From: Eledone cirrhosa
Lineage: Eukaryota
Length of the DNA: 64,000 nucleotides
Assembly (NCBI GenBank): GCA_964016885.1
Contig: OZ024751.1
Span: 8,618,001 to 8,682,000, forward strand
Direction of reading: 5' to 3'
The notes under the pieces are model-generated. The model saw nothing but the letters and a program-made list of their open reading frames with translations, was not told the origin of the DNA and did not search any database. The position numbers and the translations under genes are program-made. Shown piece after piece: positions 6,810-64,000 of this stretch (positions are counted from its first letter, which is position 1; each line of letters opens with the position of its first letter).

Positions 6810-7082
6810 GTATATAGACAGTCGACGACCCGACAACAGGACCACCAACAAGACCCGTATGCGGAGCTAATATAGCTAGCAACTACAGGATCTCCTACTT
6901 CCTCTCAATGGTTATACGCCCCATAATCAAGATGTCCCCAGATGTATGTGAAAGTACAGAGGACCTCCTCAGCAGAATCAGTGAGTGCAACAAAAACAGG
7001 AGCCTATCCAACTGCATAATAGGCAGCATGGATGTGGTGTCACTGTACCCATCCATTAACATTGATTTTGCTGTGAAAAGAT

Positions 7083-8699
7083 GTGGAGATGATCATTGAG
7101 AGTGAGGTGGAGTTCTGCGACGTCGACACAGACGAACTGGGCCTCCTACTTAGACTTACCTACGACACTGACTACCTAGACAGCCATGACCTTAGATGTT
7201 TCTGCCCTAGTAGACCTATAAGAGGTAGACCCCCCACCATAACCTCAATGGCTAAAAAGACTCCCATAGGAAGGTGGATTGGGTGGACCAAAGCTATACG
7301 GACCCCCCAAAACACTGATCAGGTAAGAAAAATGGTCGCACATGCAATAGGGGCTAGTATCAAAACTACCCTAAAGGGCCACATATTTAAGTTCAATGAG
7401 AAAATCTACACCCAAAATGAGGGAGCAGCCATCGGCGTCAGCATAGCTGGTGATGTTGCCAACCTTTTCATGGTATGGTGGGAAAGGAGACTTAAAGATC
7501 TCCTTAATGAAAGCTCCATAGACCTCATCATGTACTCTCGTTATGTAGACGATATCAATATAGTTATAAGAACACCCCCACTAGAGAGCACTAACAAGTT
7601 TGATTTAGAACGTAGCACGATGGAAAGCATCCAGCAGATAGCTAATTCCATACACCAGAGTATAACTGTAACTATAGACTTCCCTTCCAAACACCCTAAC
7701 AATAGACTACCTGTATTAGACACAGAACTCTGGATTAACACTATAGACGAGAGAGCCCAAATTCTCCACTCACACTATGCTAAACCCATGGCCTCCAAAT
7801 ACCTGATACTCAAAAACTCAGCAATGTCCAGTAGTGCTAAGTTTAATATTCTGATCGCAGATTTGGTACGAGTGATGAAGAATGTGTCCAGCATGTGCGA
7901 CCCAACAGAAATGGAAGGACACATCCAACACTTCATCAACCGCATGCAGTTCTCTGGCTACAACCAAAGAGACAGAGTCAGAGTATACGAAGGAGCCATG
8001 GAAAAGTATAAGACCCTCATAGAACTGGACATGAAAGGAATTTGCCCACTATACAGGAGCAAATCATGGAATAGCTTAGATAGGGCTAGACATAAGATAG
8101 GGAAGGCCACATCATGGTACGACAACCAGAGATATCAGAGTGTCATGTTTGTGGACGCCACCCCTGGAGGGAAATTAGCTAACCAGTGTAGAAAGGCCCT
8201 GAGAAAGACCCACTTAAAAATAAAGGTGGTAGAAAAGCCAGGAACCACCATAAAATCCCTGATCAGCAAAACCTACCCTTTTAAGAAAACCCACTGTACC
8301 AATAGGAAATGTATCATATGTAAGGTGAACCCCCGGATAAACTGTAAAACTAGAAACGTAGTCTATAGCATAAGATGTACAGAGGGTACTTGCAGAAACA
8401 CGACAACAACATACATAGGTGAGACAGCTCGTAGCATAGGTGAAAGGATAGACCAACACTGGGGGGAACTAAAAGGACGAAAAAACGGGTCAGTACTATA
8501 CGAACATGCTAGACAACAACATGACGGTAACATAGACAACATAGAAATTAGAATAATATCTAAACATAGGAATGACCCAGCAGATAGGCAAATCAGAGAG
8601 GCCAGTGAAATAGAAATTAGAAGACCAAAGCTAAACAGAAAGAATGAGTGGAACAACAACAACACCCAAACAAACAACACTGACCTAAGAGAAGTATAA
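7083..8699 (+). CDS. PLE reverse transcriptase + Cys linker + GIY-YIG endonuclease; truncated; upstream part 6817-7082 is frameshifted
   Basis: SMDVVSLYPSI in the upstream frame, GAAIG, RYVDD, Cys linker, VVYSIRC..YIGETAR..ERIDQH..E..LN; 2-bp deletion near 7083 relative to copy 2. Confidence 0.9.
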   Translation: MEMIIESEVEFCDVDTDELGLLLRLTYDTDYLDSHDLRCFCPSRPIRGRPPTITSMAKKTPIGRWIGWTKAIRTPQNTDQVRKMVAHAIGASIKTTLKGHIFKFNEKIYTQNEGAAIGVSIAGDVANLFMVWWERRLKDLLNESSIDLIMYSRYVDDINIVIRTPPLESTNKFDLERSTMESIQQIANSIHQSITVTIDFPSKHPNNRLPVLDTELWINTIDERAQILHSHYAKPMASKYLILKNSAMSSSAKFNILIADLVRVMKNVSSMCDPTEMEGHIQHFINRMQFSGYNQRDRVRVYEGAMEKYKTLIELDMKGICPLYRSKSWNSLDRARHKIGKATSWYDNQRYQSVMFVDATPGGKLANQCRKALRKTHLKIKVVEKPGTTIKSLISKTYPFKKTHCTNRKCIICKVNPRINCKTRNVVYSIRCTEGTCRNTTTTYIGETARSIGERIDQHWGELKGRKNGSVLYEHARQQHDGNIDNIEIRIISKHRNDPADRQIREASEIEIRRPKLNRKNEWNNNNTQTNNTDLREV

Positions 8700-9010: not shown

Positions 9011-9284
9011 ATTATGTAAACTATATATATATGTGTTTGTCTATATTGTATCTGTATTATTTTTGACCGCCGGTCAGTCAATGGCAACATTGAGGACCGA
9101 GTAAGTTAGATCGCACATATATATATATAAAAGACAGCGAGAAGCGAAAACCAACCAAACAGTGAGTGTGTTCTGTTATTAATTCTGGCAATATTACGCA
9201 AATATGACCCTCCCCAAGTATAACAATATCTGTTTCGACACACGATTTCATATAAAAAACCTCGCAAAACAAATTCATCGCCGC

Positions 9285-17324: not shown

Positions 17325-17985
17325 CTTGTAATATAGCTGGTGATACATCTTGTCTTGTAGATTATATTGTAGCTCGTCTTTTGGCTTGTGTTGTAGCTTG
17401 TGATATAGATTGTGTTTTAGTTTGTGTGTTGTAGCTGGTATAATAACACGTGATATCGCTTGTGTCATAGCTTGTCTTGTAGATTGTCTTGTAGTGTGTG
17501 CTGTACTTTGTGTTGTAGTTTGTGTGTTGTAGCTGGTATAATAACACGTGATATCGCTTGTGTCATAGCTTGTCTTGTAGATTTTCTTGTAGTGTTTGCT
17601 CTACTTTGTGTTGTAGTTTGTGTGTTGTAGCTGGTATAATAACATGTGATATCGCTTGTGTCATAGCTTGTCTTGTAGATTTTCTTGTAGTGTGTGCTGT
17701 AATTTGTATTGTAGTTTGCATGTTGTAGCTGGTATAATAACATGTGATATCGCTTGCGTTGTAGCTTGTCTTGTGGATTGTCTTGTAGCTTGCGATGTAG
17801 TTTGTGATGCAGTCTGTGTTGTAGTCTGTGTGTTGTATGGCATCTTATGGCTTGTAGTATTGTTGTTATCCTCGTTATAGTTGTTATCCTCGTTATAGTT
17901 GTTATCCTCATGTAATATGGCGTGTGATATCAGCTTGTAATATAGCTTGTGCTATAGGAGGTGATATAGCTTGTGTTATAGTTAT
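17325..17985. repeat. 98-bp minisatellite (4 units) built from 12-bp tgtagcttgtct-like subunits, plus an 18-bp repeat x3
   Basis: gtagctggtataataac at 17431, 17529, 17627 and 17725; ttgttatcctc x3 at 17863-17909. Confidence 0.9.
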
Positions 17986-24576: not shown

Positions 24577-24614
24577 TATATATATATATATAGCAATATA
24601 TATATATATATATA

Positions 24615-26905: not shown

Positions 26906-29427
26906 AACCTTCACTCTTTGACATTACAGATAGAACAGATTATCTATACCATTTCCTGTCAGCATGACTTGGCAAGCTATTTAGAACGCTGGTTTAACCA
27001 CTTTACTTCCCTCCGAAGAAGAGATATTATCTCGAAAATAAATAAATTTAAGGTAAAAGACTAATTGTCAACAACTTTTGCATTTGCATTTATATTCTTT
27101 ATCCTTACCTGCATTGTTTTGGCTTTACAAATACAAACGTTTATGCCTCATTTCACAATGCTTCAAGTGAACTATAACTTCCTCCCTTCCTTACGCCTGA
27201 GCCAGGCCCAGTTCACAATTGTAAAGATACTCTTCCAGCTATCTAAAAAGCGCGCCAAAGCGGGCTGCCAAATAAACTTCCTCAAACGTTGCCTGAATAA
27301 CAACACCATCCCAAAAACTATCAAAAGGTTACACCTACCAACATGCTTCATATCACCAGGCCTCAAATGAACACTTAGCTACATACAAAGATTCTGCCTA
27401 AGAAAACTCATACAACACCTACACCGCACGCTACAACAACACATACGGACTATTTCCAGCCTTGTACCACAACTCACTGAAACCCCAGAACCTCTTCCAA
27501 GAGTTATCTCCGCCGCTATAGACAGGTCATACCACTATCGACGAGACTACGAGGAATTACGCCTAACGCCAACATTTCTCAAACCTACGGAATAGGGAAC
27601 TTATATACTTCCCATCCGACAAAGGTAAAGAGTTTTGTATCATCTCTCAAGCCACATACAACAACATAGCCTTTGAACACGTAAGCGACAATGAACTATA
27701 TACAGCTGTAGATTTATTGACGGACTGCGTGGTTGCAGACGACATCCACTGCTACGGCCTGCATCCGACGGACATACACCAGCTTGTGTTCTTCACAGTG
27801 GACAACACGTACTTCACCTTCCACCACCTCACATACAGACAGACAACAGGATTACCCATGGGATGCAACCTATCGGGCCTGCTGGCCATCAGCTACATGA
27901 ACCAGCTAGAATGCCGAGCCCTCAGCACCTGCCATTCCCATACCTTCTTCACCCGATATGTATATGACATACTCGTCCTTACATAATCCCGTGAGGAGGT
28001 GGATAAAATATACACAACATTCTCCAGCATGGACGCCAGTATAAAGTTCAGCATGGAACACCCCGATGACCGCGGATCCCTATCCCTACGGGACTTCCAA
28101 CTCAGGGTAACAGAGGAAGGCAACATCCACACCTGTTTCTATAAAAAAGCCGCCAGCAGGACCTGTTTGTACATTTCAGATCGGATTTCCTAGCCGACGC
28201 TAAGTTCGGATACATATGGAACGAACTAACACGTATCCGGTACAAATGCACTGACGCTAGAGACCGAGACGCACACACCACACATTTCCTGGAAGTACTC
28301 AAACTGAACGGATATCCGACGTCCACCACGAACCGTGCCAGAAAGAACAGAGGACACCGCACCCGAGGCACTATCACCTGCTTCCTGAAGCTCCCACACT
28401 TTAGTGAGGAAACAACAACAGCCATCCGCAGAGCTCTCAGACGAGAGGGACTAGATATCCAACTAGCCCACTCAGGACCTTCTTAACGCAGACAGCTAAA
28501 GAAAAGACACTCCACCAGATATGACAGCCGCTGCAGGCTATCCAACTGCCCCATCAACGACACAGACCTTGCCACCAGCCTTACGTCGTATACAGATTAG
28601 AGTGCGAAAAATGCAGCAACTTATACGTAGGTAGCACCACCAGGCCACGTCACATAAGAATAAAAAACACCTCAATACTAACGCTTCCTCATTTAAAAGA
28701 CACCTAGTGAAATGCAAAAACACCGACAAAGACATAACAGTTAGGATAGAAACTAAGGAAAGAAACCTCGGCAATCTTAGAATTAAGGAAGCATTGATTA
28801 TAGACAAAACACAACCACCAATCAATAACAGACTATAACTCAACACCCAATGTATAACTTGATAGAGCACCTAGACCCATACTTACACCACCACCCTCTC
28901 ACACACACGCACACGCATTCACACACGCATACACACACACATACACACACGCTTACACCTCCACTTATTCTCTCTCACACACACACATACACACACAAAG
29001 ACCAGTTTTAACACGATAGAGCATCTATCCCCCACATTTACGTATAGACATATCTTCTCACACTCACACACACACACCCACACACACACACACACATACT
29101 TACACCTTCACGTATTCTCCCACACACTTAAACATACATTTACAAAACCCCTTTTAAAGGGAGACTACTCGTTATCCACCTAACCTTCACTCTTTAACAT
29201 TAGAGATAGAACATATTCTCTATACCATTTCCTGTCAGCATGACTTGGCAAGCTATTTTGAACGCTGGTATAACCACTTTACTGCCCTCCGAAGAAGAGA
29301 TATTATCTCGAAATTTAAGGATATTTAAATAAATTTAAGGTAAAAGAGTAATTGTCAACAATTATTTTGAAATTGCATTTATATTTTATATCCATACCTG
29401 CATTGTTTTGGCTTTACAAATACAGAC

Positions 29428-29431
<4 letters not shown>
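26899..29431 (+). mobile_element. PLE family B copy with 5' and 3' direct terminal repeats (pLTR), internally deleted
   Basis: 26899-27140 is repeated at 29176-29431; ORF start MLQVNYNF at 27158; FLKRCL, PSDKG, GLPMG and GIY-YIG pieces; deletion near 27705. Confidence 0.92.
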
Positions 29432-30281: not shown

Positions 30282-30283
<2 letters not shown>

Positions 30284-30666
30284 GATAACAAGTTATTGTT
30301 ATAGGTAATCCAGCTAGAGGTTGTGAGCACTCTGTATTGTGGATAGTTTTAATGTACGGCGTTATTTGACTCAACAACATGTTTCCATAGTTAGGCAGCG
30401 AGTTCGCGGGAATTCCTATGCAGGTTATTCTTGGAGTAATAATAGTGAAAGATTGAAGAATAATATGGTCGGCTGTACAAAAAGGGGTTTATTTCAGGAA
30501 TCAACAATTGTTTCATTGATCAGGTGAATCTAAAGCCCATTAATCACTCGATGTTGCGTCACTCGACCTTAAATACAGTGTTTACCTCTGATCAAATCAT
30601 CGGAATTCCGATGAATACCTGAAATAAAACCCTTTTTGTACAGCCGACCATGTTATTCTTCAATCT

Positions 30667-30672
<6 letters not shown>
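30282..30672. mobile_element. Non-autonomous fold-back element J inside (TA)n
   Basis: Inverted arms 30442-30500 / 30614-30672; about 160-nt extra tail on the left. Confidence 0.85.
30497..30609 (-). ncRNA. HHR motif with long helix II (family J)
   Basis: ggaatt-CCGATGA-t-ttgatcag...ctgatcaa-t-GAAA-caattg-TT-gattcc. Confidence 0.7.
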
Positions 30673-35857: not shown

Positions 35858-35859
<2 letters not shown>

Positions 35860-36500
35860 AAATTGGCGCTCTAAAATAGCGATATATATATGTATGTATA
35901 TATAGTGTATTTTACAATACACTGTATGCTTAATTAAAAGCATTTCGAAGACCTTACACTATGGCTTTAGAGTAGTAACAGTCTCACTTAGTTTAAATTT
36001 TCAGCAAACAAGGGAGATATAGCTGACAGAGCTATGTTTCGTACTGATTGGTACTTATCAAAGCCAAGTACTCCACCTGTTAGCTGAAAATCATGAATGT
36101 TTGATTCTTATAGAAATCTAGTAATAATCAGGAACTGATTATACAGGGCCGTTGACGGTCAAGCAGAAATTGAAAATTAGAATTGGCGCTCTGAAATAGC
36201 GATATATATATGTGAATGTATATATAGTTCATTTTGCAATGCACTGTATGCTTAATTAAAAGCATTTCAAAGACCTTACGCTATTGTTTTAGAGTAGTGA
36301 CAGTCTCACTTACATTAAATTTTCAGCAAAGAAGGGAGATAAAGGTGACAGAGCTCTGTTTCGTACTTTTCTCCCTTGTTTGCTGAAAATTTAAAGTAAG
36401 TGAGACTATCACTACTCTAAAACAATAGCGTAAGGTCTTCGAAATGCTTTTAGTCAAGCATAGAGTGTATTGCAAAATACACTATATATACATTCATATA
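35858..36500. mobile_element. Family G1: 320-bp ORF-less tandem unit (about 1.6x) plus inverted arm, inside (TA)n
   Basis: aattggcgctct at 35861 and 36181; inverted arm 36370-36500. Confidence 0.9.
36021..36065 (-). ncRNA. HHR, U3:A8 core variant (G1)
   Basis: ggct-TTGATAA-gtac caatca gtac-GAAA-catagctctg-TC-agct; the second unit has the perfect palindrome acagagctctgt. Confidence 0.8.
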
Positions 36501-37836: not shown

Positions 37837-37876
37837 AATATATATATTTATATATATATATATATTTATATAAATA

Positions 37877-39087
37877 TAACTTAATTTAGTTATTATTGCA
37901 CCAACGTGAGGTATATGATTTTTAATGCAATGAAATATCTATGAACGTTGGCAAATCACTGATGAAGGACTCATTTTATAACATGTTATCCATGTGCAAC
38001 CTGCAGTATTCTTCTCCCCATTTTTTCACATATATTTACCTAAACTGCGATTCTGTTTTTTTCTCTCTCTCTTACTGCTCCCTCGTTCTCTCTGTTTCTC
38101 CTACTTTCTTTCGCCCCCTCTGTCATGTCAGTTAACACTTTCTCTCTACTGACCTCTTCCTCACACTTCCACTCACTCACTCACTGTTTCTCCCCTTCTC
38201 ACTTCACTCCGTTCGCGACGAATACAATTTCCTTCTTTCTTACATTTGGATTCATCTCGAAAGGTCTTTTTTCTACGCGCTCATATATTCACCCATCTTA
38301 TGCTGACAGAATAACTATGTAGCTTGTTCTCTTCCTATCTACGGTTAGCTTTCCTCTTTGTTGTTTACTTGTCTCACTCGCTTTACGCGTTTTAATTGTC
38401 CTAATAACTTAATTTAGTTATTATTGCACCAACGTGAGGTATATGATTTTTAATGCAATGAAATATCTATGAACGTTGGCAAATCACTGATGAGGGACTC
38501 ATTTTATAACATGTTATCCATGTGCAACCTGCAGTATTCTTCTCCCCATTTGTTCACATATATTTACCTAAACTGCGATTCTGTTTTTCTCACTCTCTCT
38601 CTTACTGCTCCATCGTTCTCTCTGTTTCTCCTACTTTCTTTCGTCCCCTCTGTCATGTCAGTTAACACTTTCTCTCTAGTGACCTCTTCCTCACACTTCC
38701 ACTCACTCACTCACTGTTTCTCCCCTTCTCACTTCACCCCGTTTGCGACGAATACAATTTCCTTCTTTCTTACATTTGGATTCATCTCGAAAGGTCTTTT
38801 TTCTACGCGCTCATATATTCACCCAGCTTATGCTGACAGAATAACTATGTAGCTTGTTCCCTTCCTATCTACGGTTAGCTTTCCTCTTTGTTGTTTACTT
38901 GTCTCACTCGCTTTACGCGTTTTAATTGTCCTAATAACTTAATTTAGTTATTATTGCACCAACGTGAGGTATATGATTTTTAATACAATGAAATATCTAT
39001 GATCGTTGGCAAATCACTGATGAGGGACTTATTTTATAACATGTTATCCCTGTGCAAACTGCAGTATTCTTCTCCCCATTTTTTCAT
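37877..39087 (+). repeat. Family F: 528-530-bp ORF-less tandem unit x2.3 inside (TA)n
   Basis: taacttaatttagttatt at 37877, 38405 and 38935. Confidence 0.95.
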
Positions 39088-41100: not shown

Positions 41101-41576
41101 TAAGTTGTAAAATGAAAACGAAATTTCATTTCTCACTCTTAGTACGGCACTTGTACTTCTGTATACATATATGTATGTACGTATACATATATACTTGCAT
41201 TTAAGTAAGTGCCGTACTAAGAGTGAGAAATGAAATTTCGTTTTCATTCTATTATAACTTATCGTTTTCGGTGCGCCTGGCCGACTGAACTCACTCGATA
41301 TACAAATTAGGCTGCTCAGCCGTTAATTTTCATAAGGAAAGTATATACCTTCGAACGTTCAACTATCTGGCAGAAGGGTATACGGTGCTGACGATAGCTA
41401 ACAAGCTTGAAACTAGTACATCGTTCCTGTGTCAGTGTTGAACAAAAAGGTGACGTGGTTTCCTTAACACCGTACGGCATAAATCAGGCTGTCCGTTTGT
41501 TTACAAACGAACAAAGCGGCATTATAATAAATGTTCGCTAAACTGATACGTACATATATATATGTGTGCCTGTATG

Positions 41577-41609
<33 letters not shown>

Positions 41610-41722
41610 ACATGCTACTGTACTTCTGTATACATATATGTATGTACGTATACATACATACTTGCATTTAAGTAAGTGCCGTTCTAAGAGTGAGAAATGA
41701 AATTTCGTTTCATTCTATTCTA
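41101..41722. mobile_element. Family D1: about 467-bp ORF-less unit (1.2x) plus short inverted arm
   Basis: tgtacttctgtatacata at 41152 and 41619; 41101-41152 is inverted relative to 41207-41261. Confidence 0.85.
41383..41423 (+). ncRNA. Minimal HHR (D); also 47786-47826 (+) and 47378-47418 (-)
   Basis: cggtg-CTGACGA-t-agct aaca agct-t-GAAA-ctag-TA-catcg. Confidence 0.8.
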
Positions 41723-42080
41723 TCTATTTATATATATATATGTTTATATATATATATATGTATATATATATATTTTTCGTTTCTGAATTTGTTTAGCAAG
41801 ATTCTTTATCTGAAATCGTGTGTTGAAACCGATATTGTTATACTTTGGGAGGGTCATGTTGCCAATAAGAAACACACGCACCAGTTTAGACAAATTACAG
41901 AGGCAATAAACATAAAAGAATTACAACCAAAATTGAATAGAAAATATGAGTGGAACAGCAACATAACAACTTACAATTAAGGACAAAATGAAAACACACA
42001 CACACATAGAACAAACAACCAACCAATAACATGTAAATAAATAAACAAATAGATAAATGAACACAAACACACACAGACAC

Positions 42081-42137
42081 CCGGATGTGGCGCATGCGCA
42101 AACTGACACACAACACACACACAGAAACAAAATGGCG
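42081..42137 (+). promoter_or_regulatory. ETS + NRF1 + YY1 motif cluster upstream of the HHR in the A2 terminal repeat
   Basis: ccggatgt 42081, gcgcatgcgca 42090, aaaatggcg 42129; the NRF1 and YY1 motifs are also in A1 (8838, 8921). Confidence 0.5.
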
Positions 42138-42183
42138 TAGGACAGAAGAAAGGAAAGGCACAGAAACAAAGAAAGGAATCCCC

Positions 42184-42228
42184 AGTCACTGAAGAGGTCA
42201 CAGAGTGTGTGACGAAAGGACTATGACT
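42184..42228 (+). ncRNA. Minimal HHR (A2); degenerate copies at about 54029-54073 (+) and 52596-52640 (-)
   Basis: agtca-CTGAAGA-g-gtcaca gagtg tgtgac-GAAA-ggac-TA-tgact. Confidence 0.8.
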
Positions 42229-42419
42229 ATATATAAACAACTATCTGGTTGTGGAACCTACCAATCAGAAATTTATAAATTTGTAGATTTGTAAATTTAT
42301 AAATTTATAAATATATAATAAATTGAAGTGAAAGCAACTGGTGCGTGTGTTTCTTATTGGCAACATGACCCTCCCAAAGTATAACAATATATATATATAA
42401 TTATATATATATATATTAT

Positions 42420-42474
<55 letters not shown>

Positions 42475-42505
42475 ATATATTTATTTTTATATATATATTT
42501 ATATA

Positions 42506-42660
42506 GTATTAGTTATACTATTTATGGTTATGTAAATACAAAACCTTATGCAGTTATAAGTATTTTACACACACCCTAAATAGTGGTAGGCAGTAATGTA
42601 TTACTACCTTATTACCAGTAAGTTAAGTAGCTCAATGGTTCTTTGATTCTTATATATTTC
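42506..42660. mobile_element. Family C mini-insertion made of its two termini only
   Basis: Long terminus (-) 42506-42638 fused to short terminus (+) gttctttgattcttatatatttc. Confidence 0.8.
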
Positions 42661-42690
42661 ATATATTTATATATATATATTTATATATAT

Positions 42691-44603
42691 GAAATATATG
42701 AAATATATGAATCAAAGAACTGTTCAAAACATTATTGTGCTTACAGCTGTTTCCTCCAAACCGAGGTTTGGATTCTTCGGAGCAATTTATTAATGCATGG
42801 ACAGTTATATGACCTCCTTTTCAGCCGAGAGACATACCAACACATATTCAAACATTGATACATATTCAAACATTGTGGGTCAACATTCATTTAAGCCCCA
42901 TATATAGCAATGTCGGACTGGAACCTAACACCACATCTAGCATCAAACACCAGAGACACACCCTATACTACATACCCAACACTAGCTGATCCATTATAAC
43001 ACAAACAACGACATCCCTCTGGAACCCTTCGCAGGGAAAATACCCATTTATACCTCTACGGCAGGTGTGACAACATCCACCCACCTGGACGGCACTACGC
43101 CGCTCTAAGGGTAATTTGAGCATCAATTGATCGGTTGGATGGTGTTGGGCAGAGGAAACACCTTCCTTAGACAGATGTAAAATGATTTAATCGAGTAGCG
43201 CTGTTGACCAGTAGGACCAGGCCGCTGAGCGCAGTGAGTGAATGCAATGCAACTGCCGTGCGGGTTGTACGTATATGGATGATCTGACGGTCAGAGAGGG
43301 GTCGCGAGGACTGCGACTTGACCTTTGGCCTGCCTGGGGATGATTATCTTTCGACATCCAATGTAGCAAGCGATGACCCGGATCTTACCAGAGATCATTG
43401 GGTCCTGAAGCAATCCTGCAATCACCGCGCCTGGTCATATGAGCAGACTACAACCATAGAGATCATTAATTTAGAATCCTCGCTCATCATCTATAATTTC
43501 CATTTGTAGCACCTTGAGATGGGTTAATCCACCCTAATAATAATATGATCACCTTCAGCATAATTTAGTTAAACTACTCTATAGTTAGTACACTTTATGC
43601 TTTAAAAGTCTCTCTTGGAAGGTGCACCTCACCATAGAATTTAGGGTCTATATTGAGACACATTTTAATGGCTAGATATGGAAACCCCAGAGTTACCTCC
43701 CCGCATGCATTAACTCCCCTTAGCCACACACACACTTCCGGTATTCAATGGCGTCTCTCGAAACGTAACAACCACCTGTATCGAACTAAAGAGCACCAGA
43801 CTACGATCTCTAACTGGATTGTCGTGGATTATGTGAAAGGCATATAATCGAAATATACACTCCCTTGACCATGAAAATACCGAAGTACATGAATTACTTG
43901 ACATCCCTGCGCTGTGCATCTCCAATACTTATAACACTTTTAATGCTTGCACTATCTTTAATGCTTATAATATTTCTCCACACACAGACTACATCAATCA
44001 TATAAAGACTTTGCCACCAGATCTACCAACCTAACACTCTTATTTACCTACCTAAGTGCCTCTACCACACATATCTCTCTGCCACACTATATAAACAAGA
44101 CGCACATGCGTGCCACACATATAACATTTGCACTATATAACCACTTATCTTCATGTTGTACTTTAACCTATATCTTTGATTTTTTTGATTGTACCTATTA
44201 ATATAAATGTAATCTCGAAGTGTGTACTGCCACTCTAAATTCTGTAATGAATGTTGACCCACAATGTTTGAATATGTATCAATGTTTGAATATGTGTTGG
44301 TATGTCTCTCGGCTGAAAAGGAGGTCATATAACTGTCCATGCATTAATAAATTGCTCCGAAGAATCCAAACCTCGGTTTGGAGGAAACAGCTGTAAGCAC
44401 AATAATGTTTTGAACAGTTCTTTGATTCATATATTTCATATAACTGCTCTGTAAATCATCTGATGTTTTTACATTGAGCTACTTAACTTACTGGTAATAA
44501 GGTAGTAATACATTACTGCCTACCACTATTTAGGGTGTGTGTAAAATACTTACAACTGCTTAAGGTTTTGTGTTTACATAACCATAAATAGTATAACTAA
44601 TAC
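42691..44603 (+). mobile_element. PLE family C copy 1: non-coding 3' part with inverted arm
   Basis: Arm 42691-42890 is the reverse complement of 44247-44440; the body matches 61418-62966. Confidence 0.92.
44353..44399 (+). ncRNA. HHR with CCGAAGA core (C); also 62882-62928 (+), 42738-42784 (-), 60832-60878 (-)
   Basis: tgct-CCGAAGA-a-tccaaac ctcg gtttgga-g-GAAA-cagctg-TA-agca. Confidence 0.85.
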
Positions 44604-45260: not shown

Positions 45261-46500
45261 AACAATTAAGTTAAAGTGTACATCTATATATGTATACGGA
45301 AGTATTAGTATGCATATAAATACACATATGTATACATATGTACATGTACCGAGCTTTTCACTAGACACTTTACAGTGAGTGTCCAGCTAGTCTGTATGTA
45401 AACAGACGAACCGGGTTTTAAAGTCATACGAGTTTTCAAGGAAACACATTTCCTCTATTCCCCAGAGAGCCAGACAGGAATATTGGACTAGTTTCGATGT
45501 CATTACATCTCATCAGTAATATATACCCTGATTCCGGCTTCTCTGGAGAATTGTAAAAGCACATATCGTTATATACTTTTTCTATGAAAATCAGTAGTGG
45601 GCAGACTAATTTGCATAGAACGTGAGTCATTGTACGCACCTGTTCAGCGGAAACGATAAAAACAAATAACGAAACGAAATTAAGTTTCGTTTCGCTTCTA
45701 ACTCACTTTTGTATGACTGACGCTTGAACAATTAAGTTAAAGTGTACATCTATATATGTATACGGAAGTATTAGTATGCATATAAATACACATATGTATA
45801 CATATGTACATGTACTGATCTTTTCACTAGACACTTTACAGTGAGTGTCCAGCTAGTCTGTATGTAAACAGACGAACCGGGTTTTAAAGTCATACGAGTT
45901 TTCAAGGAAACACATTTCCTCTATTCCCCAGAGAGCCAGACAGGAATATTGGACTAGTTTCTATGTTATTACATCTCATCAGCAATATATACCTATCTTT
46001 CCGGCTTCTCTGGAGAATTGTAAAAGCACATATCGTTATATGCTTTTTCTATGAAAATCAGTAGTGGGTAGACTAATTTGCATAGAACGTGAGTCATTGT
46101 ACGCACCGGTTCAGCGGAAACGATAAAAACGAATAACGAAACGAAATTAAATTTCCTTTCGCTTCTAACTCACTTTTGTATGACTGACGCTTGAACAATT
46201 AAGTTAAAGTGTACATCTATATATGTATACGGAAGTATTATTATGGATATAAATACACATATTTATACATATGTACATGTACCGAGCTTTTCACTAGACA
46301 CTTTACAGTGAGTGTCCAGCTAGTCTGTATGTAAACAGACGAACCGGGTTTTAAAGTCATACGAGTTTTCAAGGAAACACATTTCCTCTATTCTCCAGAG
46401 AGCCAGAGAGGAATATTGGACTAGTTTCGATGTTATTACATCTCATCAGCAATATATACCTATCTTTCCGGCTTCTCTGGAGAATTGTAAAAGCACATAT
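45261..46500 (-). repeat. Family E: 466-467-bp ORF-less tandem unit x2.65 with one HHR per unit (retrozyme-like)
   Basis: aacaattaagttaaag at 45261, 45727 and 46194. Confidence 0.95.
46413..46455 (-). ncRNA. Canonical minimal HHR (E); also 45480-45522 and 45946-45988
   Basis: atattg-CTGATGA-gatg taataa catc-GAAA-ctag-TC-caatat. Confidence 0.9.
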
Positions 46501-50912: not shown

Positions 50913-51064
50913 TTGTTATACTTGAGGAGGGCTATATGTTTCTAATATTGCCAGAATTAATAATTCTGGCAATATTACACAAATATGACCCTCCCCAAGT
51001 ATAACAATATTTGTTTCGACACACGATTTCGTATAAAAAGCCTCGCAAAACTAATTCGTCGCCG
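50913..51064. mobile_element. Family A1 mini-insertion (two termini only)
   Basis: Short terminus (-) 50913-50960 plus long terminus (+) ending ttcgtcgccg. Confidence 0.88.
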
Positions 51065-51127: not shown

Positions 51128-51130
<3 letters not shown>

Positions 51131-51947
51131 ATTTTTGAAATTTAAATTTGTCTAAACACCATGGCCATTTGCCAATACTGTTTGTTTGTGTTGATTTAAT
51201 ATTTTAAATCGATGTAGGCAGGCTGTAATATTATAATTAGTATATTTCCTTCTAGCTAACTTAATTCATTTTGCAATATAATCAAAGATATGTTGGTATC
51301 TATGTTTCATCATATATATTGATTTATATTTATTACACAGCTTAGAAATATTCTTTTCTTTGAGCTATTTTCATTGTAAAGGAATGCTTGAGATTTGAAC
51401 TCATTACACTTAATAAAATTGCTCCTTAGGTTGAGCTGATAGTAGCCCCATATATACGGCTGTTATTTCTAGCAGTACGCGTATGAGGCTGGCTAGAAAC
51501 TGTAAAACCATGTGCGTTAAACAGTCTTTTAAAATATTTGGAAGTGAAGCATATCAATTTGTTCTGGGTGTTTACTGAAGAGAGCGGGACATGATATCTT
51601 TACACTTATTTATCTCGAAACATATTTGGAATTTAAAGTTTAAACTTATCTACGGAACAGGTTTGATTTTGAAATTTAAATTTGTCTGAACACCATGGCC
51701 ATTTGCCAATACTGTTTGTTTGTGTTGATTTATTATTTTAAATCGATGTAGGCAGGCTGTAATATTAAAATTAGTATATTTCCTTCTAGCTAACTTAATT
51801 CATTTTGCAATATGAACAAAGATATGTTGGTATCTGTGTTTCATCATATATATTGATTTATATTTATTACACGGCTTAGAAATATTCTTTTCTTTGAGCT
51901 ATTTTCATTGTAAAGGAATGCTTGAGATTTGAACTCATTACACTTAA
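51128..51947 (+). repeat. Family H: 535-bp unit x1.5 inside (TA)n, degenerate HHR at 51571-51631
   Basis: ttgattttgaaatttaaatttgtct at about 51128 and 51663; CTGAAGA-gag...ctc-GAAA-catat. Confidence 0.85.
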
Positions 51948-52327: not shown

Positions 52328-52445
52328 TATATATATATATTTATATATATATATTTATATATATATATATATTTATATACATATATTTTTTTTTTAATAT
52401 ATATATTTATATATATATATATATTCATATATATATATTTATATA

Positions 52446-54283
52446 TTGTTATACTTTGGGAGGGTCATGTTGCCAATAAGAAACACACGCACAAGTAGCT
52501 TTCACTTCAATTTATTATAATAAATTTATAAATTCAGGATTTTATGAATTTCCGGTTGGTTGGTTGGTTCCACAACCAGATTGTTGTTTATATATTGTCA
52601 AAGTTCTTTCGTCACACATTATTGGACCTCTTCAGTGACTGGGGATTCTTTTCTTTGTTTTTGTGCCTCTCCTTTGTTCTGTCCTACGCCATTTTGTTTC
52701 TGTGTGAGTGTTGTGTGCTCAGTCTGCGCATGCGCCACATCCCCACTAGAGAACAGTCAGGAATTAGAGATGGAAAGCATCCAGCAAATAGCTAACTCCA
52801 TCCACCAGAGCATTAGAGTTACTATAGACGACCCAAGTAAACACCCCAACCATCGATTACCTGTACTAGACACAGAGCTCTGGTTAGATACAATTAATAA
52901 CAAACAACAAATCATCCATTCCCATTATGCCACACCCATGACTTCCAAATATCTGATTCACCGAAACTCAGCTGTTTCGGACCATACCAAAATTAACATA
53001 CTGATTAGGGATTTGGTATGGGTGATGAGAAACGTGTCCCGCATGTGCAAGCCCGAAGAACTAGAGAGACACATACAAAACTTCATCCACCGTATGCAGT
53101 TCTCTGGTTACAATCAGAGAGATAAAATCAGAGTGTATAGTAGAGCCAGAACCAAATGGGAAAAAATGGTAAATAATGACACAAATGGGTCCTGCCCCTT
53201 GTATAGGAGCAAATTTTTGAATAGAATAGAAAGAACTTGGAATAAGGCTAATAGAATAAACTCATGGTATGATAGCAATAAATACCAGAGTGTAATGTTC
53301 ATCGATACAACCCCTAGAGGTGAATTAGCTTACAAGTTTAGAAGGGCCCTAGATAAACAAAAACTCAATATTAAGATAGTAGAAAGACCAGGTACCTCCG
53401 TAAAAACACTTATTAGCAAGACATACCCTTTTCAAAAACCTCCCTATATAGATAAGAAATGTATAACCTTTAAATTAAGCCCACATATTAACTGTAAAAC
53501 TAGAAATGTAGTATATAGCATAAGATGTACTGAAGAACAATGTAGAAACAAAAATATAGTGTACATAGGTGAGACAGCTTGTAGTGTAGGGGTACGGATA
53601 AATGAACACTGGCGAGAACTACAAGATAGTAAAGAATCATCTGTAATCTACCAACATTCTAAAATAGAACATAAGGGTAAATTTGAGAACATAGAAATAA
53701 ATACAGAATCTACACACAGAAAAGACGCAATGTTTAGACAAATCACAGAGGCAATAAACATAAAAGAATTACAACCAAAATTAAATAGAAAACATGAGTG
53801 GAACAGCAACATCGCAACTTACAATTAAGGACAAAATGAAAACACACACGCACATAGAACAAACAACCAACCTGTAACATGTAAATAAACAAACAAATAA
53901 ACGAATATAAACACACACAGAGACCCGGATGTGGCGCATGCGCAGACTCAGCACACAACACACACACAGAAACAAAATAGCGTAGGACAGAACAAAGGAG
54001 AGGCACAAAAACAAAGAAAAGAATCCCCAGTCACTGAAGAGGTCACAGAATGCGTGACGAAAGAACTTTGTCAATATATAAACAACTATCTGGTTGTGGA
54101 ACCAACCAACCAACCGGAAATTAATAAATTCCTAAATTTATAAATTTATTATAATAAATTGAAGTGAAAGCTGGTGGTGCGTGTGTTTCTTATTGGCAAC
54201 ATGACCCTCCTAAAGTATAACAATATCGGTTTCAACGCACGTTTTCAGATAAAGAATCTTGCTAAACAAATTCAGAAACGAAA
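52446..54283 (+). mobile_element. PLE family A2, 5'-truncated, with inverted terminal repeat (52446-52741)
   Basis: Arm is the reverse complement of 53927-54223; 60-nt extra tail on the right; (TA)n flanks. Confidence 0.95.
52742..53828 (+). CDS. PLE RT thumb + GIY-YIG fragment (A2); residues called from 52560-52741 come from the inverted arm
   Basis: LPVLDTELW, RMQFSGY, VVYSIRC..VYIGETA; clear paralogue of A1. Confidence 0.88.
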
Positions 54284-54347
54284 TATATTTATATATATAT
54301 ATATATATATATTTTCATATATATATATTTATATATATATATATATT

Positions 54348-58200: not shown

Positions 58201-58680
58201 ATAATTAATTAGAAACAAAAGGTATATGTAAACGACATTGTTCGCTGCATATGTACAGCTAGAAACACATAATATAAAGTACATTGCTTCTGGTGAGGAA
58301 TTAACATAGGCGGTGACTTAGAGAAATGCATTGCGGCAAACTTGAAGAGAGGAAAACTAATTAAAACATTGAAACACTAATTTCCTGTCAGATAAAGAAA
58401 GGCAAATGAGAGAATTAGACCAAATACAACCTTATAAATATTTAGAAATTAATGAACTTGACAGAGTAAAACACACAAAAATGAAGAAGAAGATTAGGGA
58501 GTAACAAAAACTATAAACACAGATCAATACAGAAAACAGAACTAGATGCCAAAAAGAAGGAAGTAATATTGTAATCTTCTAGTAATATATTATAATTATA
58601 TTATTCTCAACTGCTGTATAAGTGAATTGGCAGGATATATGTATATATATTTATACATATATATATACACATATATATAA

Positions 58681-58774
<94 letters not shown>

Positions 58775-58950
58775 TTATATATATATATATATACTTATAT
58801 ATATATTTTACATATATATATATACATATATATATATTCATATATATATATAAATATATACATATATATATATATTCATATATACATATATATATATACA
58901 CACACATATATATATATATATATATTCATATATATATATATATATACCTA

Positions 58951-58984
<34 letters not shown>

Positions 58985-59021
58985 CATATATATAAATTAT
59001 ATTTTCATATATATATATATA

Positions 59022-59104
<83 letters not shown>

Positions 59105-59130
59105 GTATATATTTATATATATATATATAC

Positions 59131-59165
<35 letters not shown>

Positions 59166-59198
59166 AATATATGTATATATATATATATATATATAAAT

Positions 59199-59229
<31 letters not shown>

Positions 59230-59242
59230 CATATATATATTC

Positions 59243-59296
<54 letters not shown>

Positions 59297-59322
59297 TCAT
59301 ATATATAAATATATAAATATGT

Positions 59323-59400
<78 letters not shown>

Positions 59401-59449
59401 TCACATATATATATATATATATATATAAATATATATATATATTCTTATA

Positions 59450-59672
<223 letters not shown>

Positions 59673-59675
59673 TCT

Positions 59676-59732
<57 letters not shown>

Positions 59733-59793
59733 ATATATTCATATATATATATATATTCATATATATATATATATATATATTCATGTATATATA

Positions 59794-59838
59794 TTTCGTT
59801 TCCATTATTGGCAACATGACCCTCCCAAAGTATAACAA
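59794..59838. mobile_element. 45-bp A2 micro-insertion with 12-bp target duplication
   Basis: tttcgtttc (long end, -) + ttattggcaacatgaccctcccaaagtataacaa (short end, +); catgtatatata on both sides. Confidence 0.85.
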
Positions 59839-59854
59839 CATGTATATATATATA

Positions 59855-59934
<80 letters not shown>

Positions 59935-60413
59935 TATATATATATATTCATATATATATGTATATATATATATATATTCATATATATATGTATATATATA
60001 TATTCATATATATGTGTATATATATATATTCATATATATATGTATATATATATATATTCATATATATATATGTATATATATATATTCATATATATATGTA
60101 TATATATATATTCATATATATATTTATATATATATATATTCATATATATATTCATATATATATATATATATTCATATATATATGTATATATATATTTATA
60201 TTCATATATATGTGTATATATATATATTCATATATTTATGTATATATATATTCATATATATATGTATATATATATATATATTCATATATATATGTATATA
60301 TATATATATTCATATATATATGTATATATATATATTTTCATATATATATGTATATATATATATATTCATATATAAATGTATATATATGTATGTATATATA
60401 TATTCATATATAA

Positions 60414-60452
<39 letters not shown>

Positions 60453-60504
60453 TATATAAATGTATATATATGTATATATATATATATATATATTCATATA
60501 TAAA

Positions 60505-60537
<33 letters not shown>

Positions 60538-60553
60538 TCATATATATATATAA

Positions 60554-60587
<34 letters not shown>

Positions 60588-60636
60588 TCATATATATAAA
60601 TATATAAATATGTATATATATATATAAATATATATA

Positions 60637-62996
60637 GTATTAGTTATACTATTTATGGTTATGTAAATACAAAACCTTAAGCAGTTGTAAGTATTTTACA
60701 CACACTCTAAATAGTGGTAGGCAGTATTGTATTACTACCGTATTACCAGTAAGTTAAGTAGCTCAATGTAGATGATTTACAGAGCAGTTATATGAAATAT
60801 AAGAATCAAAGAACTGTTCAAAACATTATTGTGCTTACAGCTGTTTCCTCCAAACCGAGGTTTGGATTCTTCGGAGCAATTTATTAATGCATGGACAGTT
60901 ATATGACCTCCTTTTCAGCCGAGAGACATACCAATACCAAAATCCTATATCTACCACACAGACTTCCGCATTGCATTATAACCAGCGGACTAACGCACAG
61001 GATAATTGTAACTGTAGAGCTAATAGAACTTGCCCTTTACATAAAAAATGCCTAACCAAGGATGTCATATACTCATGCACCGTCACGACTAATAACTCTT
61101 CAGAAACCTGTGTAGGCTCCACTTCTAACTGCTTCAAAATCAGATATAATTCGCACATCCACTCGTTCAAAAAGCACAGCCTAGCCAACTCCACCTCACT
61201 TTCTAGCTACATACACTATCTAAAATCTAAAAATAAACCATACACACTCAAATGGGAAGTGATAGGAAGCGCGACCTCGTACAAACCACCTAATACATTC
61301 TGTAACCTCTGTATACTAGAGACACACAATATTATCTTCTCCAACCGTAACCTACTTAACAAAAAATCTGAGGTGTTTGCAACTTGCCAGCACCGCCTCA
61401 GACATTCCTTCCAAAACTTTAAGCCCAATATATAGCAATGTCGGACTGGAACCTAACACCACATCTAGCATCATACACCAGAGACATACCTTATACTACA
61501 TACCCAACACTAACTGATCCGTTATAACACAAACAATGACATCCCTCTGGAACCCTTCGCAGGGAGAATACCCATTTATACCTCTACGGCAGGTGTGACA
61601 ATATCCACGCACTTGAAAGGCACTACATCGCTCTAAGGGTAATTTGAGCATGAATTGTTCGGTTGGATAGTGTGGTGCAGAGGAAACACCTTCCTTAGAC
61701 AGATGTAACATGATTTAATCGAGTAGCGCTGTTGACCAGTAGGACCGGACTGCTGAGCGCAGTGAGTGAATGCATTCCAACTGCCGTGCGGGTTGTACGT
61801 ATATGGATGCTCTGACGGTCAGAGAGGGGTCGCGAGGACTGCGGATGGACCTTTGGCCGGCCTGGGGATAATTATCTTTCGACATCAAATGTAGCAAGCG
61901 ATGACCCAGATCTAACCAGAGATCATTGGGTCCTGAAGCAAGCCTGCAATCACCGCGCCTGGTCATATGAGCAGACTACAACCACAGAGATCATTAATTT
62001 AGAATCCTCGCTCATCATCTATAATTTCCATTTGTGGCACCTTAAGATGGGTTAATCAACCATAATAATATGATCACCTTCAGCATAACTTAATTAAACT
62101 ACTCTATAGTTAATACACTTTATGCTTTAAAAATCTCTCTTGGAAGATGCGCATCACCATGGAATTTAGGGTCTATATTGGGACACATTTTTATGGCTAG
62201 ATATAGAAACCCCAGAGTTACCTCCCCGCACGCATTAACTCCCCTTAGCCACACACACACTTCCGGGCGGTATTCAATGGCGTTTCTCGAAACGTAACAA
62301 CCTCCTGTATCGAACTAAAGAACACCAGACAACGATCTCTAACTGGATTGTCGTGGATTATGTGAAAGGCATATAATCGAAATATACACTCCCTTGACCA
62401 TGAAAATGCCGAAGTACATGAATTACTTGACATCCCTGCGCTGTGCATCTCCAATACTTATAACACTTTTAATGCTTGCACTATCTTTAATGCTTATAAT
62501 ATTTCTCCACACACAGACTATATCAATCATATAAAGAATTTGCCACCAGATCTACCAACCTAACACTCTTATTTACCTACCTAAGTGCCTCTACCACATA
62601 TCTCTCTGCCACACTATATAAACAAGACGCACATGCGTGCCACACATATAACATTTGCACTATATAACCGCTTATCTTCATGTTGTATTTTAACCTATAT
62701 TTATTTTTGATTTTTGATTGTACCTATTAATATAAATGTAATCTCGAAGTGTGTACTGCCACTCTAAATTCTGTAATGAATGTTGACCCACAATGTTTGT
62801 ATATATATCAATGTTTGAATATGTATTGGTATGTCTCTCGGCTGAAAAGGAGGTCATATAACTGTCCATGCATTAATAAATTGCTCCGAAGAATCCAAAC
62901 CTTGGTTTGGAGGAAACAGCTGTAAGCACAATAATGTTTTGAACAGTTCTTTGATTCTTATATTTCATATATTTCATATATTTCATATATTTCATA
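60637..62996 (+). mobile_element. PLE family C copy 2 with inverted long terminus (60637-60933)
   Basis: Inverted arm, GIY-YIG remnant, 1.5-kb 3' region, HHR, (TA)n flanks. Confidence 0.93.
60934..61435 (+). CDS. PLE GIY-YIG endonuclease domain, 5'-truncated (Nematis-like Cys pattern)
   Basis: CNCR...CPL..KCL..DVIYSCTV...VGST..FKIRYNSH...CNLCILE...LLNKKSE...CQH. Confidence 0.85.
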
Positions 62997-63001
62997 TAAA
63001 T

Positions 63002-63035
<34 letters not shown>

Positions 63036-63036
63036 T

Positions 63037-63078
<42 letters not shown>

Positions 63079-63090
63079 TATATATATATT

Positions 63091-63139
<49 letters not shown>

Positions 63140-63140
63140 T

Positions 63141-63173
<33 letters not shown>

Positions 63174-63898
63174 ATTTATATATATATATATATTCATATA
63201 TATATATATATTCATGTATATATATATATTCATATATATATATATATATATATATTCATATATATATATATTCATATATATATGTATATATATATATATT
63301 CATATATATATGTATATATATATATTTATATATGTATATATATATATTCATATATATGTGTATATATATATTCATATATATATGTATATATATATATATT
63401 CATATATATATGTATATATATATATTCATATATATATGTATATATATATATTCATATATATATTTATATATATATATATTCATATATATATTCATATATA
63501 TATATTCATATATATATGTATATATATATATTCATATATATGTGTATATATATATATTCATATATATGTGTATATATATATTCATATATATATGTATATA
63601 TATATATATTCATATATATATGTATATATATATATATATATTCATATATATATGTATATATATATATATATATTCATATATATATGTATATATATATATA
63701 TTCATATATATATGTATATATATATATATTCATATATATATGTATATATATATATATTCATATAAATATGTATATATATATATATTCATATATATATGTA
63801 TATATATATATATATTCATATATATATGTATATATATATATATTCATATATAAATGTATATATATGTATGTATATATATATTCATATATAAATGTATA

Positions 63899-63929
<31 letters not shown>

Positions 63930-63939
63930 TCATATATAA

Positions 63940-64000
<61 letters not shown>

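What the first reader, a model, noticed from the sequence alone, without database searches (positions are those of the whole stretch)
59782..59850. 45-bp insertion with both termini and a readable 12-bp target duplication
Seen: catgtatatata | tttcgtttc-ca-ttattggcaacatgaccctcccaaagtataacaa | catgtatatata. This is 9 nt of the A2 long end on - and 34 nt of the short end on +. A variant base in the microsatellite makes the duplication visible, which pure (TA)n would hide. Inference: a stagger of about 12 nt and a minimal two-ended integration product.
Basis: seen in the sequence. Interest (0 to 1): 0.7.

Follow-up and report, generated by a model that had tools for sequence, protein, structure and literature searches.

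The report
Tiny retrotransposon insertion reveals target duplication
A 45-base scrap of a Penelope-like jumping gene sits inside a TA repeat and, thanks to two rare variant letters and an unfilled sister copy of the same spot nearby, shows that the element duplicated about 12 bases when it inserted, a number that such repeats usually hide.

Summary
'A2' is a (TA)n-targeting Penelope-like retroelement (RT, C-terminal GIY-YIG, hammerhead core; Neptune/Nematis-type linker in its sister family A1). The insert joins the tail-bearing end (minus strand) to the tail-less end (plus strand). New evidence: the tract at 62995-64000 is a sister copy of the host tract, and its matching site (63211-63232) is empty, carries CATG once and is exactly 57 bp (45+12) shorter. 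A second A2 copy also shows a variant-marked 12 bp; the third allows up to 12. Corrections: this site alone bounds the duplication only at 4-13 bp; the arms share a 5-nt microhomology, so only 4 nt are unique to the long end; and the 45 bp may be a deletion remnant of a longer copy rather than a primary product. Across families 6 of 10 informative insertions match at 12-14 bp and 4 do not. Inverted arms, one-sided tails and 8-10-bp duplications are already described for this class. Real, well supported, modestly new: a measurable stagger for a microsatellite-targeting family.

The parts
59782..59793 (+). Left copy of the 12-bp target duplication (CATG + four TA pairs); may extend to 59794
59794..59802 (-). 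Last 9 nt of the tail-bearing (long) A2 end, pointing left; only 59794-59797 are unique to it
   Evidence: matches 54275-54283 and 41775-41783
59798..59802 (.). 5-nt microhomology shared by the long arm and the sequence upstream of the short arm
   Evidence: 14 of 5830 possible truncation pairs (0.24%) have 5 nt or more
59803..59804 (.). Two extra bases (CA) found in neither arm: filler, later insertion or consensus error
   Evidence: 2-nt gap against 41835-41873
59805..59838 (+). Last 34 nt of the A2 pseudo-LTR up to the tail-less (short) end
59839..59850 (+). Right copy of the target duplication; starts with CAT where the element template continues TAT
58635..60636 (.). Host imperfect (TA)n tract
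62995..64000 (.). Sister copy of the host tract (tandem duplicate or unmerged haplotype); runs off the window
   Evidence: 47 of 69 aligned variant words match, score 100.6 against shuffle maximum 46.3 (200 shuffles) and 12.4-16.4 for 7 control tracts
63211..63232 (+). Empty counterpart of the insertion site: CATG once, then six TA pairs
   Evidence: 57 bp shorter than the filled site
52446..54283 (.). Longer A2 copy: inverted short arm left, 5'-truncated ORF, long end right; flanks 52434-52445 and 54284-54295 form a variant-marked 12-bp repeat
   Evidence: (fits only k=4 and k=12)
41773..42387 (.). Third A2 copy, long end left, short end right; flanks allow up to 12 bp but carry no marker; 3-nt junction microhomology
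52740..53828 (+). A2 ORF remnant: RT thumb region, degenerate zinc-finger linker, C-terminal GIY-YIG
   Evidence: (GIY-YIG E=0.0028, below curated cut-off)
54034..54062 (+). Hammerhead-core-like motif in the A2 pseudo-LTR (also at 42189-42217 + and 52607-52635 -)
   Evidence: pattern recalled; central stem formed; no Rfam hit
7077..8699 (+). A1 sister-family ORF (540 aa, 60% identical to A2) used to classify the family

Best explanation
The 45 bp are an insertion of a (TA)n-targeting Penelope-like retrotransposon, made by priming reverse transcription from both cut strands. SHOWN: the insert carries the two alternative 3' ends of family A2 pointing outward; the site gained exactly 57 bp against its empty sister; CATG was duplicated. 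INFERRED: (1) the GIY-YIG nuclease nicked the top strand after 59793/59794 and the bottom strand opposite 59782, leaving about 12-nt 3' overhangs; (2) the top-strand end primed cDNA at the long end and the bottom-strand end primed at the internal short site 60 nt upstream, pairing with the RNA's UAU (here through a terminal rU:dG wobble, which is why the target C survives); (3) both cDNAs stopped early, aligned on the 5-nt microhomology and were joined with two extra bases; (4) fill-in duplicated the overhang. I put about 0.9 on 'PLE insertion with a real target duplication', about 0.75 on its length being 12-13, and 0.55-0.6 on the 45 bp being the primary product.
For: Exact repeat with two variant bases, chance 0.4-1.2%. 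Empty sister site with CATG once and six TA pairs, as on the right of the filled site; net gain 57. A2 52446-54283 fits only k=4 or 12; B copy 42506-42661 fits only 4 or 12. 16 of 17 two-armed insertions have one long and one short end (p=1.4e-4 if each end chose at random with p=0.5). The template continues TAT after the short end in 8 of 10 families and TA in the other 2. Other short two-armed inserts exist (152 and 156 bp). In vitro, an anole PLE cuts and extends both strands and starts at two sites that delimit the tail (PMC11167929).
Against: 4 of 10 informative insertions do not fit 12-14 bp: A1 50913-51064 (max 5), A1 6817-9284 (max 6), C 35858-36482 (max 10), D 41103-41728 (max 8). B 42690-44603 lies in a 14-bp periodic stretch, so 0, 14 or 28 all fit. 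For B 60637-62994 the sister tract has three AA variants, as many as both flanks together, which does not favour a duplication. With the focal site, these two B copies and the C copy that needs a slid boundary left out, 2 of 6 match (p=0.04-0.14). The CA needs an extra event. The anole study reports initiation at a site not homologous to the cut DNA, unlike step 2. TA run lengths differ between the sister tracts at 8 of 12 other positions, so equality of the six-pair run is not guaranteed to be ancestral.
Confidence: 0.58

Rival explanations
1. Deletion remnant: a longer long-left/short-right A2 copy (like 41773-42387) inserted with the same 12-bp duplication and later lost its interior by microhomology-mediated end joining between the two GTTTC copies, with a 2-nt insertion. 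The duplication is real; 'minimal integration product' is not.
For: 5-nt microhomology exactly at the junction (0.24% of truncation pairs) plus a small insertion; other junctions here show only 0-3 nt (4 examined); microhomology-mediated deletions are reported to disable many Penelope copies (PMC3846280 Discussion); long inverted arms are deletion-prone (recalled).
Against: Two other short two-armed inserts (152, 156 bp) suggest a continuum of early-terminated products; microhomology at inversion junctions is also expected from cDNA annealing (PMC2912911); the 34-nt arm has no substitution against the 41773-42387 copy, leaving little time, though 34 nt is a weak clock.
Confidence: 0.27
2. One-ended insertion: a 39-nt short-end cDNA with a later CA insertion, plus a 4-nt filler that resembles the long end by chance.
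For: GTTTC belongs equally to the short arm; T-rich variant words such as TTTTCA occur in the tract; the 9-mer occurs exactly 10 times in the window, 7 of them in other repeat families.
Against: The 4 unique bases abut the duplication exactly where the long end is expected and in the right orientation; 16 of 17 two-armed insertions have this arrangement and the other 2 of 2 A2 copies are two-ended.
Confidence: 0.06
3. No true duplication: the CATG unit had already been duplicated by microsatellite slippage and the element entered bluntly at the unit boundary.
For: The host tract is full of locally duplicated variant words (for example 5 TTCT against 2 in the sister tract); 4 of 10 informative insertions show no 12-14-bp match.
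Against: The sister site has CATG once; chance 0.4-1.2%; the second CATG begins precisely at the short-end boundary used by every other A copy (5 of 5); an independent A2 copy gives the same 12.
Confidence: 0.05
4. Assembly or consensus artefact in a long low-complexity tract.
For: The site lies in 2 kb of TA repeat; the sister tract could be an unmerged haplotype; no reads could be checked.
Against: Errors do not produce 34 nt of perfect element sequence ending at the canonical short end. An unmerged haplotype would make the sister site a true empty allele and strengthen the case. The CA and run lengths are the parts most open to error.
Confidence: 0.04

Closest known systems
Endonuclease-containing Penelope-like elements, Neptune/Nematis type
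   Same: RT with C-terminal GIY-YIG; CX4CxxC linker before the nuclease in A1; inverted 5'-truncated arm; tail at one end only; hammerhead-like core; microsatellite insertion bias, which PMC8557442 and its preprint link to the linker.
   Different: Tails here are 58-60 nt in A and 44-165 nt in other families against the 30-40 bp described; the preprint says duplications often could not be discerned in microsatellite-targeting Naiad and Chlamys elements, whereas here one is readable and checked against an empty site. Clade not tested by phylogeny.
Penelope elements of Adineta vaga (PMC3846280)
   Same: Inverted pseudo-LTR arrangement, optional tail on one arm, target duplication verified by an empty allelic site (8 bp).
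   Different: Duplications of 8, 9 and 10 bp in non-microsatellite targets; kilobase-size inserts; head-to-head inversions there are attributed to self-priming on an antisense template, not to priming from both target strands.
Poseidon of Anolis carolinensis in vitro (PMC11167929)
   Same: Cuts and extends both strands; two initiation sites delimit the tail; AT-rich targets.
   Different: Penelope/Poseidon clade; initiation reported at a site not homologous to the cut DNA and with no strand difference in start site, while here the short site is followed by TAT or TA in 10 of 10 families and ends come as one long plus one short; no duplication length in the parts read.
LINE-1 twin priming (as described in PMC2912911)
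   Same: One end primes at the RNA 3' end, the other internally; microhomologies at the primed ends and at the inversion junction; target duplication (peak 14-16 bp for L1).
   Different: Different element class and nuclease (AP endonuclease, poly(A) priming; recalled); L1's internal priming site is variable, here it is one fixed site per family.

Membership tests
EN+ Penelope-like elements | Reverse transcriptase domain | tested here: met
   A1 ORF: Pfam RVT_1 E=0.0012, 19 bits, below the 29.6 cut-off; YVDD motif present; Atlas clusters with RVT_1 and GIY-YIG at 0.93-0.94. The A2 copies are truncated past the RT core; A2 is 60% identical to A1 over the shared part.
EN+ Penelope-like elements | GIY-YIG endonuclease in the same ORF | tested here: met
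   A2 ORF residues 321-410, Pfam GIY-YIG E=0.0028, below the 22.6 cut-off; motif visible and conserved in the alignment.
EN+ Penelope-like elements | CCHH motif with two cysteines between the GIY and YIG halves | tested here: met
   Two cysteines between the motif halves and downstream histidines in A1 and A2 (read by eye); definition.
EN+ Penelope-like elements | Pseudo-LTR with inverted 5'-truncated copy and a tail at one end | tested here: met
   3 of 3 A2 copies.
EN+ Penelope-like elements | Hammerhead ribozyme in the pseudo-LTR | tested here: inconclusive
   A recalled core pattern gives 22 matches against 1.05 expected, including 3 in A2 and 2 in A1 arms; stem II folds but z-scores are -0.3 to -0.5, and Rfam gave no match.
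EN+ Penelope-like elements | Target-site duplication | tested here: met
   Focal site and A2 52446-54283.
Neptune/Nematis clades | CX2-5CxxC linker upstream of a C-terminal GIY-YIG | tested here: met
   CX4CxxC in A1; two of the three cysteines are substituted in the decayed A2 copy.
Neptune/Nematis clades | Placement in the RT phylogeny (Neptune versus Nematis) | not tested
   No clade-labelled reference proteins came back.
Naiad/Chlamys | N-terminal endonuclease | tested here: not met
   Nuclease is C-terminal.
Penelope/Poseidon clade | Zinc-finger linker absent | tested here: not met
   Linker present in A1 (definition).
Hydra clade | CCHH motif absent | tested here: not met
   Cysteine pair present (definition).
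MITE / TIR DNA transposon | Terminal inverted repeats of one sequence at both ends | tested here: not met
   The two ends of the 45-bp insert are different sequences lying 60 nt apart on one template.
Twin-primed integration (works like, not membership) | Both target strands prime cDNA on element RNA in vivo | not testable with these tools
   Inferred from orientation, microhomologies and the duplication; needs biochemistry.

The most novel reading that the evidence does not exclude
(TA)n-targeting Penelope-like elements integrate by a concerted double priming reaction: a near-fixed 12-14-nt 3'-overhang cut, one strand always primed at the tail end and the other always at a fixed internal site chosen by 2-4-nt pairing between the TA overhang and UAU in the RNA. 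The 45-bp insert would be the smallest footprint of that reaction, and imperfect TA tracts would record the stagger genome-wide. This would explain the one-sided tail and the inverted arm in a single step and would differ from the variable second-nick and homology-free initiation described so far.
Probability: 0.4. Interest if true: 0.65.

Novelty: new member of a known kind. Interest (0 to 1): 0.42.

Why it matters
How Penelope-like elements make inverted arms and one-sided tails is stated as unresolved in the papers read, and microsatellite targets usually hide the duplication. This site gives a measured value checked against an empty counterpart and a method that scales: use variant bases in TA tracts, with one boundary convention, to read the stagger for thousands of copies. 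It yields concrete predictions for in vitro work (nick spacing of about 12 nt, one long plus one short start, dependence on UAU pairing). The locus itself has no evident host function.

Tried and rejected
Rfam found nothing in the window at gathering thresholds and only a chance snoRNA match at E=4.7 over the A2 3' end. Folding the 104 nt around the two A2 ends gave no stable structure (z=+1.07), so no stem-loop initiation signal like the anole one was shown. PDB sequence search gave two weak bacterial RT hits (E=0.035, 0.11), uninformative. A boundary-free scan of islands between 101 TA tracts recovered the focal repeat but returned many matches that are simply tract periodicity; I did not count it as evidence. 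Family G was mis-bounded and redone (no marker, up to 20). An origin of the 9-mer from repeat family D was considered (4 of its 10 exact matches) and rejected because there it lies inside the element, not at an end. The B 60637-62994 duplication (14 bp) was first counted as support and then downgraded after comparison with the sister tract. Family C 50281-50711 matches at 12-14 only after sliding the boundary through templated TA-rich sequence, so it is weak. Direct-tandem copies (51129-51946, 45262-46500, 37876-39085) were left out of the long/short count. The genome-contig scan was not used because it is prokaryotic; no eukaryotic DNA collection or raw reads were available, so copies outside the window stayed unchecked. 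PMC138580 (Drosophila Penelope insertions) was not held. No supplementary files were read; those of PMC8557442 and PMC11167929 may hold duplication lengths or clade references.

Full report
Observation. It lies in a 2-kb imperfect TA tract, 58635-60636. The repeat holds two non-TA bases, C and G. On the + strand the 12-mer occurs at 2 places in that tract, the two flanks, and at 5 in the window. A null in which an element enters bluntly at any site of 17 TA tracts gives a 12-14-bp match with two variant bases at 35 of 7862 sites, and an 8-16-bp match at 93 of 7862 (22 of 1853 in the host tract).

What A2 is. A 21-nt probe from the insert hits 9 places in the window against 0 expected. Self-comparison resolves two related families, A1 and A2, about 71% identical in the coding region. 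The A1 ORF at 7077-8699 has a weak RVT_1 match and the A2 ORF remnant a weak GIY-YIG match at its C-terminus, both under the curated cut-offs. The best homologue of 185 found is an Octopus vulgaris hypothetical protein at 66% identity, so the window is probably from a cephalopod (inference; not determined). [quoted passage not shown] A recalled hammerhead core pattern matches 22 times against 1.05 expected, including the A1 and A2 arms, although Rfam reports nothing. A2 is thus a microsatellite-targeting Penelope-like element; the exact clade was not tested.

Anatomy of the insert. A2 has two 3' ends 60 nt apart on one template: a short end and a long end that adds the tail. The insert has 9 nt of the long end on the minus strand, CA, and 34 nt of the short end on the plus strand, so both 3' ends face outward. 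The last five of the nine bases also match the template just upstream of the 34-nt arm; 14 of 5830 possible truncation pairs have such a microhomology. Only 4 nt are therefore unique to the long end. Four other junctions examined show 3, 3, 0 and 0 nt (read by eye).

An empty site in the window. Writing the tracts as ordered variant words shows that 62995-64000 repeats the host tract from about 59340 onward. The word alignment scores 100.6 with 47 of 69 columns matched; 200 shuffles reach at most 46.3 and 7 control tracts 12.4-16.4; the block of rare words leading to the site was matched by 0 of 2000 shuffles. At the homologous position, 63211-63232, CATG occurs once, followed by six TA pairs. 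The filled site has CATG, four pairs, the insert, CATG, six pairs. The distance to the next variant word is 75 against 18, a gain of 57 = 45 + 12. This is direct evidence that CATG was duplicated. The caveat is that run lengths differ between the sister tracts at 8 of 12 other positions. Whether the sister is a tandem duplicate or an unmerged haplotype cannot be told here; either serves as an empty site.

How long is the stagger? The markers pin only the first four bases. On the short side the template continues TAT while the genome reads CAT, so the C is target-derived and that boundary is tight, unless a T-to-C change occurred later. On the long side the TA pairs could have been copied from RNA, which gives strict bounds of 4-13. 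In A2 52446-54283 the marker lies six bases from the long end and only k=4 or 12 fit; if the stagger is constant this narrows it to about 8-13, and equal values under one convention make 12 the simplest reading (inference). The third A2 copy allows up to 12.

Other families. Of 18 insertions examined, 10 have a marker close enough to test. Six match at 12-14: the focal site (12), A2 52446 (12), B 42506 (12), B 42690 (14, but periodic, so 0 or 28 also fit), B 60637 (14, not favoured by the sister tract, which has as many AA variants as both flanks together) and C 50281 (only after sliding the boundary). Four do not: A1 50913 (max 5; its arms are only 38 of 44 identical, so it is old), A1 6817 (max 6; one-armed), C 35858 (max 10) and D 41103 (max 8; unclear ends). 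Eight carry no marker; seven have upper bounds of 12, 12, 14, 16, 17, 18 and 20 and one has none below 27. Leaving out C 50281, 5 of 9 has p=7e-5 to 2e-3 under per-site null rates of 0.058 and 0.115; without the focal site 4 of 8 has p=7e-4 to 8e-3; without the focal site and the two doubtful B copies 2 of 6 has p=0.04 to 0.14. The 12-14 window was chosen after seeing the data, so the looser rate is the fairer one. The cross-family claim is suggestive, the A2 claim good.

Two regularities. Of 17 inverted two-armed insertions, 16 have one long and one short end and 1 (D 41103) is unresolved (13, 4). After the short end the template continues TAT in A1, A2, B, C, E, G and H (C is ambiguous because its template is TA-rich) and in the family at 30282-30670, and TA in two more (read by eye). 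I placed the boundaries before the TA, but an arm ending at an arbitrary point would not be followed by TAT in the template. This points to a short primer-template pairing at the internal start.

Mechanism. Inferred: staggered nicks about 12 nt apart leave 3' overhangs; one primes at the long end, the other at the short site by pairing with UAU; the two cDNAs align on a microhomology and are joined; fill-in duplicates the overhang. This works like L1 twin priming as described in PMC2912911 (passages) and agrees with the two-strand cutting and two start sites shown for an anole Poseidon protein (PMC11167929, parts 1-2 of 4 read), though that paper reports homology-free initiation. The main rival leaves the duplication intact but makes the 45 bp a microhomology-mediated deletion remnant of a longer copy, a process reported for rotifer Penelopes (PMC3846280, passages and Discussion). 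Sequence alone cannot separate the two.

What is known. Inverted arms and a tail often at one end only are described as typical (PMC8557442, passages and Introduction; PMC8969392 passages; PMC2377424 passages). Duplications of 8, 9 and 10 bp, one verified by an empty allele, are reported in Adineta. PMC8557442 calls the duplication length variable, and its preprint says it often could not be discerned in microsatellite targets (passages). An Octopus vulgaris repeat annotation lists recently active Penelope-like families and has no occurrence of 'target site' in its main text (PMC13282606, passages). A retrozyme preprint added nothing on this point (passages). In the listings of searches I saw no paper giving a duplication length for (TA)n-targeting Neptune-type elements or proposing twin priming for this class; the library is open-access only, most listed papers were seen as listings, supplements were not read, and repeat databases could not be checked.

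Verdict. Real feature, correctly spotted, now backed by an empty-site control. It is a small instance of a known architecture in a known class. Its value is the measured stagger and a scalable way to test the integration mechanism. Interest 0.42; new member of a known kind.

Noticed in passing
window 59230-60525 and 60525-64000 (interrupted by 60637-62994): The TA tract is duplicated as a unit of roughly 1.3 kb; one unit holds the A2 micro-insert, the other a 2.4-kb family B element, so each is the other's empty site. Tandem duplication or unmerged haplotype.
   Followed up: partly
window 42506-42661: A second miniature two-ended insert (family B, 156 bp: long arm left, short arm right) with a variant-marked 12-bp flanking repeat, 28 bp from another B copy.
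   Followed up: yes
window 42690-42711 and 62962-62994: The short ends of two family B copies carry two to three extra tandem copies of a 9-mer that ends at the priming site, as if the RT re-primed repeatedly, reminiscent of telomerase-type reiteration. Microsatellite-like slippage is the alternative.
   Followed up: partly
window 24593-24596: A 3-4-nt stub matching the start of the adjacent family H long end sits about 20 bp upstream in the TA flank; possibly an aborted first priming event.
   Followed up: no
window 6817 and 24463: Two A1 copies, 97% identical and in opposite orientation 15 kb apart, share the same 5' truncation point; one may derive from the other, or both from a truncated master copy.
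   Followed up: partly
window-wide, e.g. 24748, 39592/40566, 41388, 44948/45011, 45492, 47389/47791: At least ten repeat families with hammerhead-core-like motifs and/or long/short ends are inserted in TA tracts, often a few dozen bases apart (41103-44603 holds four in a row). Rfam detects none.
   Followed up: partly
window 24615-29430, 60803-61435: Further Penelope-like coding remnants: RT fragments in family H (Pfam RVT_1 E=1.1e-12) and a GIY-YIG-like C-terminus in family B (no Pfam match; read by eye).
   Followed up: no
window 20520-21068: A 182-aa open frame with no significant Pfam match; by recall it resembles the C-terminus of pogo/Tigger-type transposases. Not tested.
   Followed up: no
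window 52446-52742 against 53927-54223: Arm-to-arm identity within an insertion (281 of 297 here; 159 of 159 and 182 of 182 in others; 38 of 44 in A1 50913) can serve as an age clock like LTR-LTR divergence.
   Followed up: partly
window 17349-17981 and 45261-46500: A 98-bp minisatellite (4.2 copies) and a 467-bp tandem repeat (2.7 copies, each with a hammerhead-core-like motif), the latter retrozyme-like.
   Followed up: no
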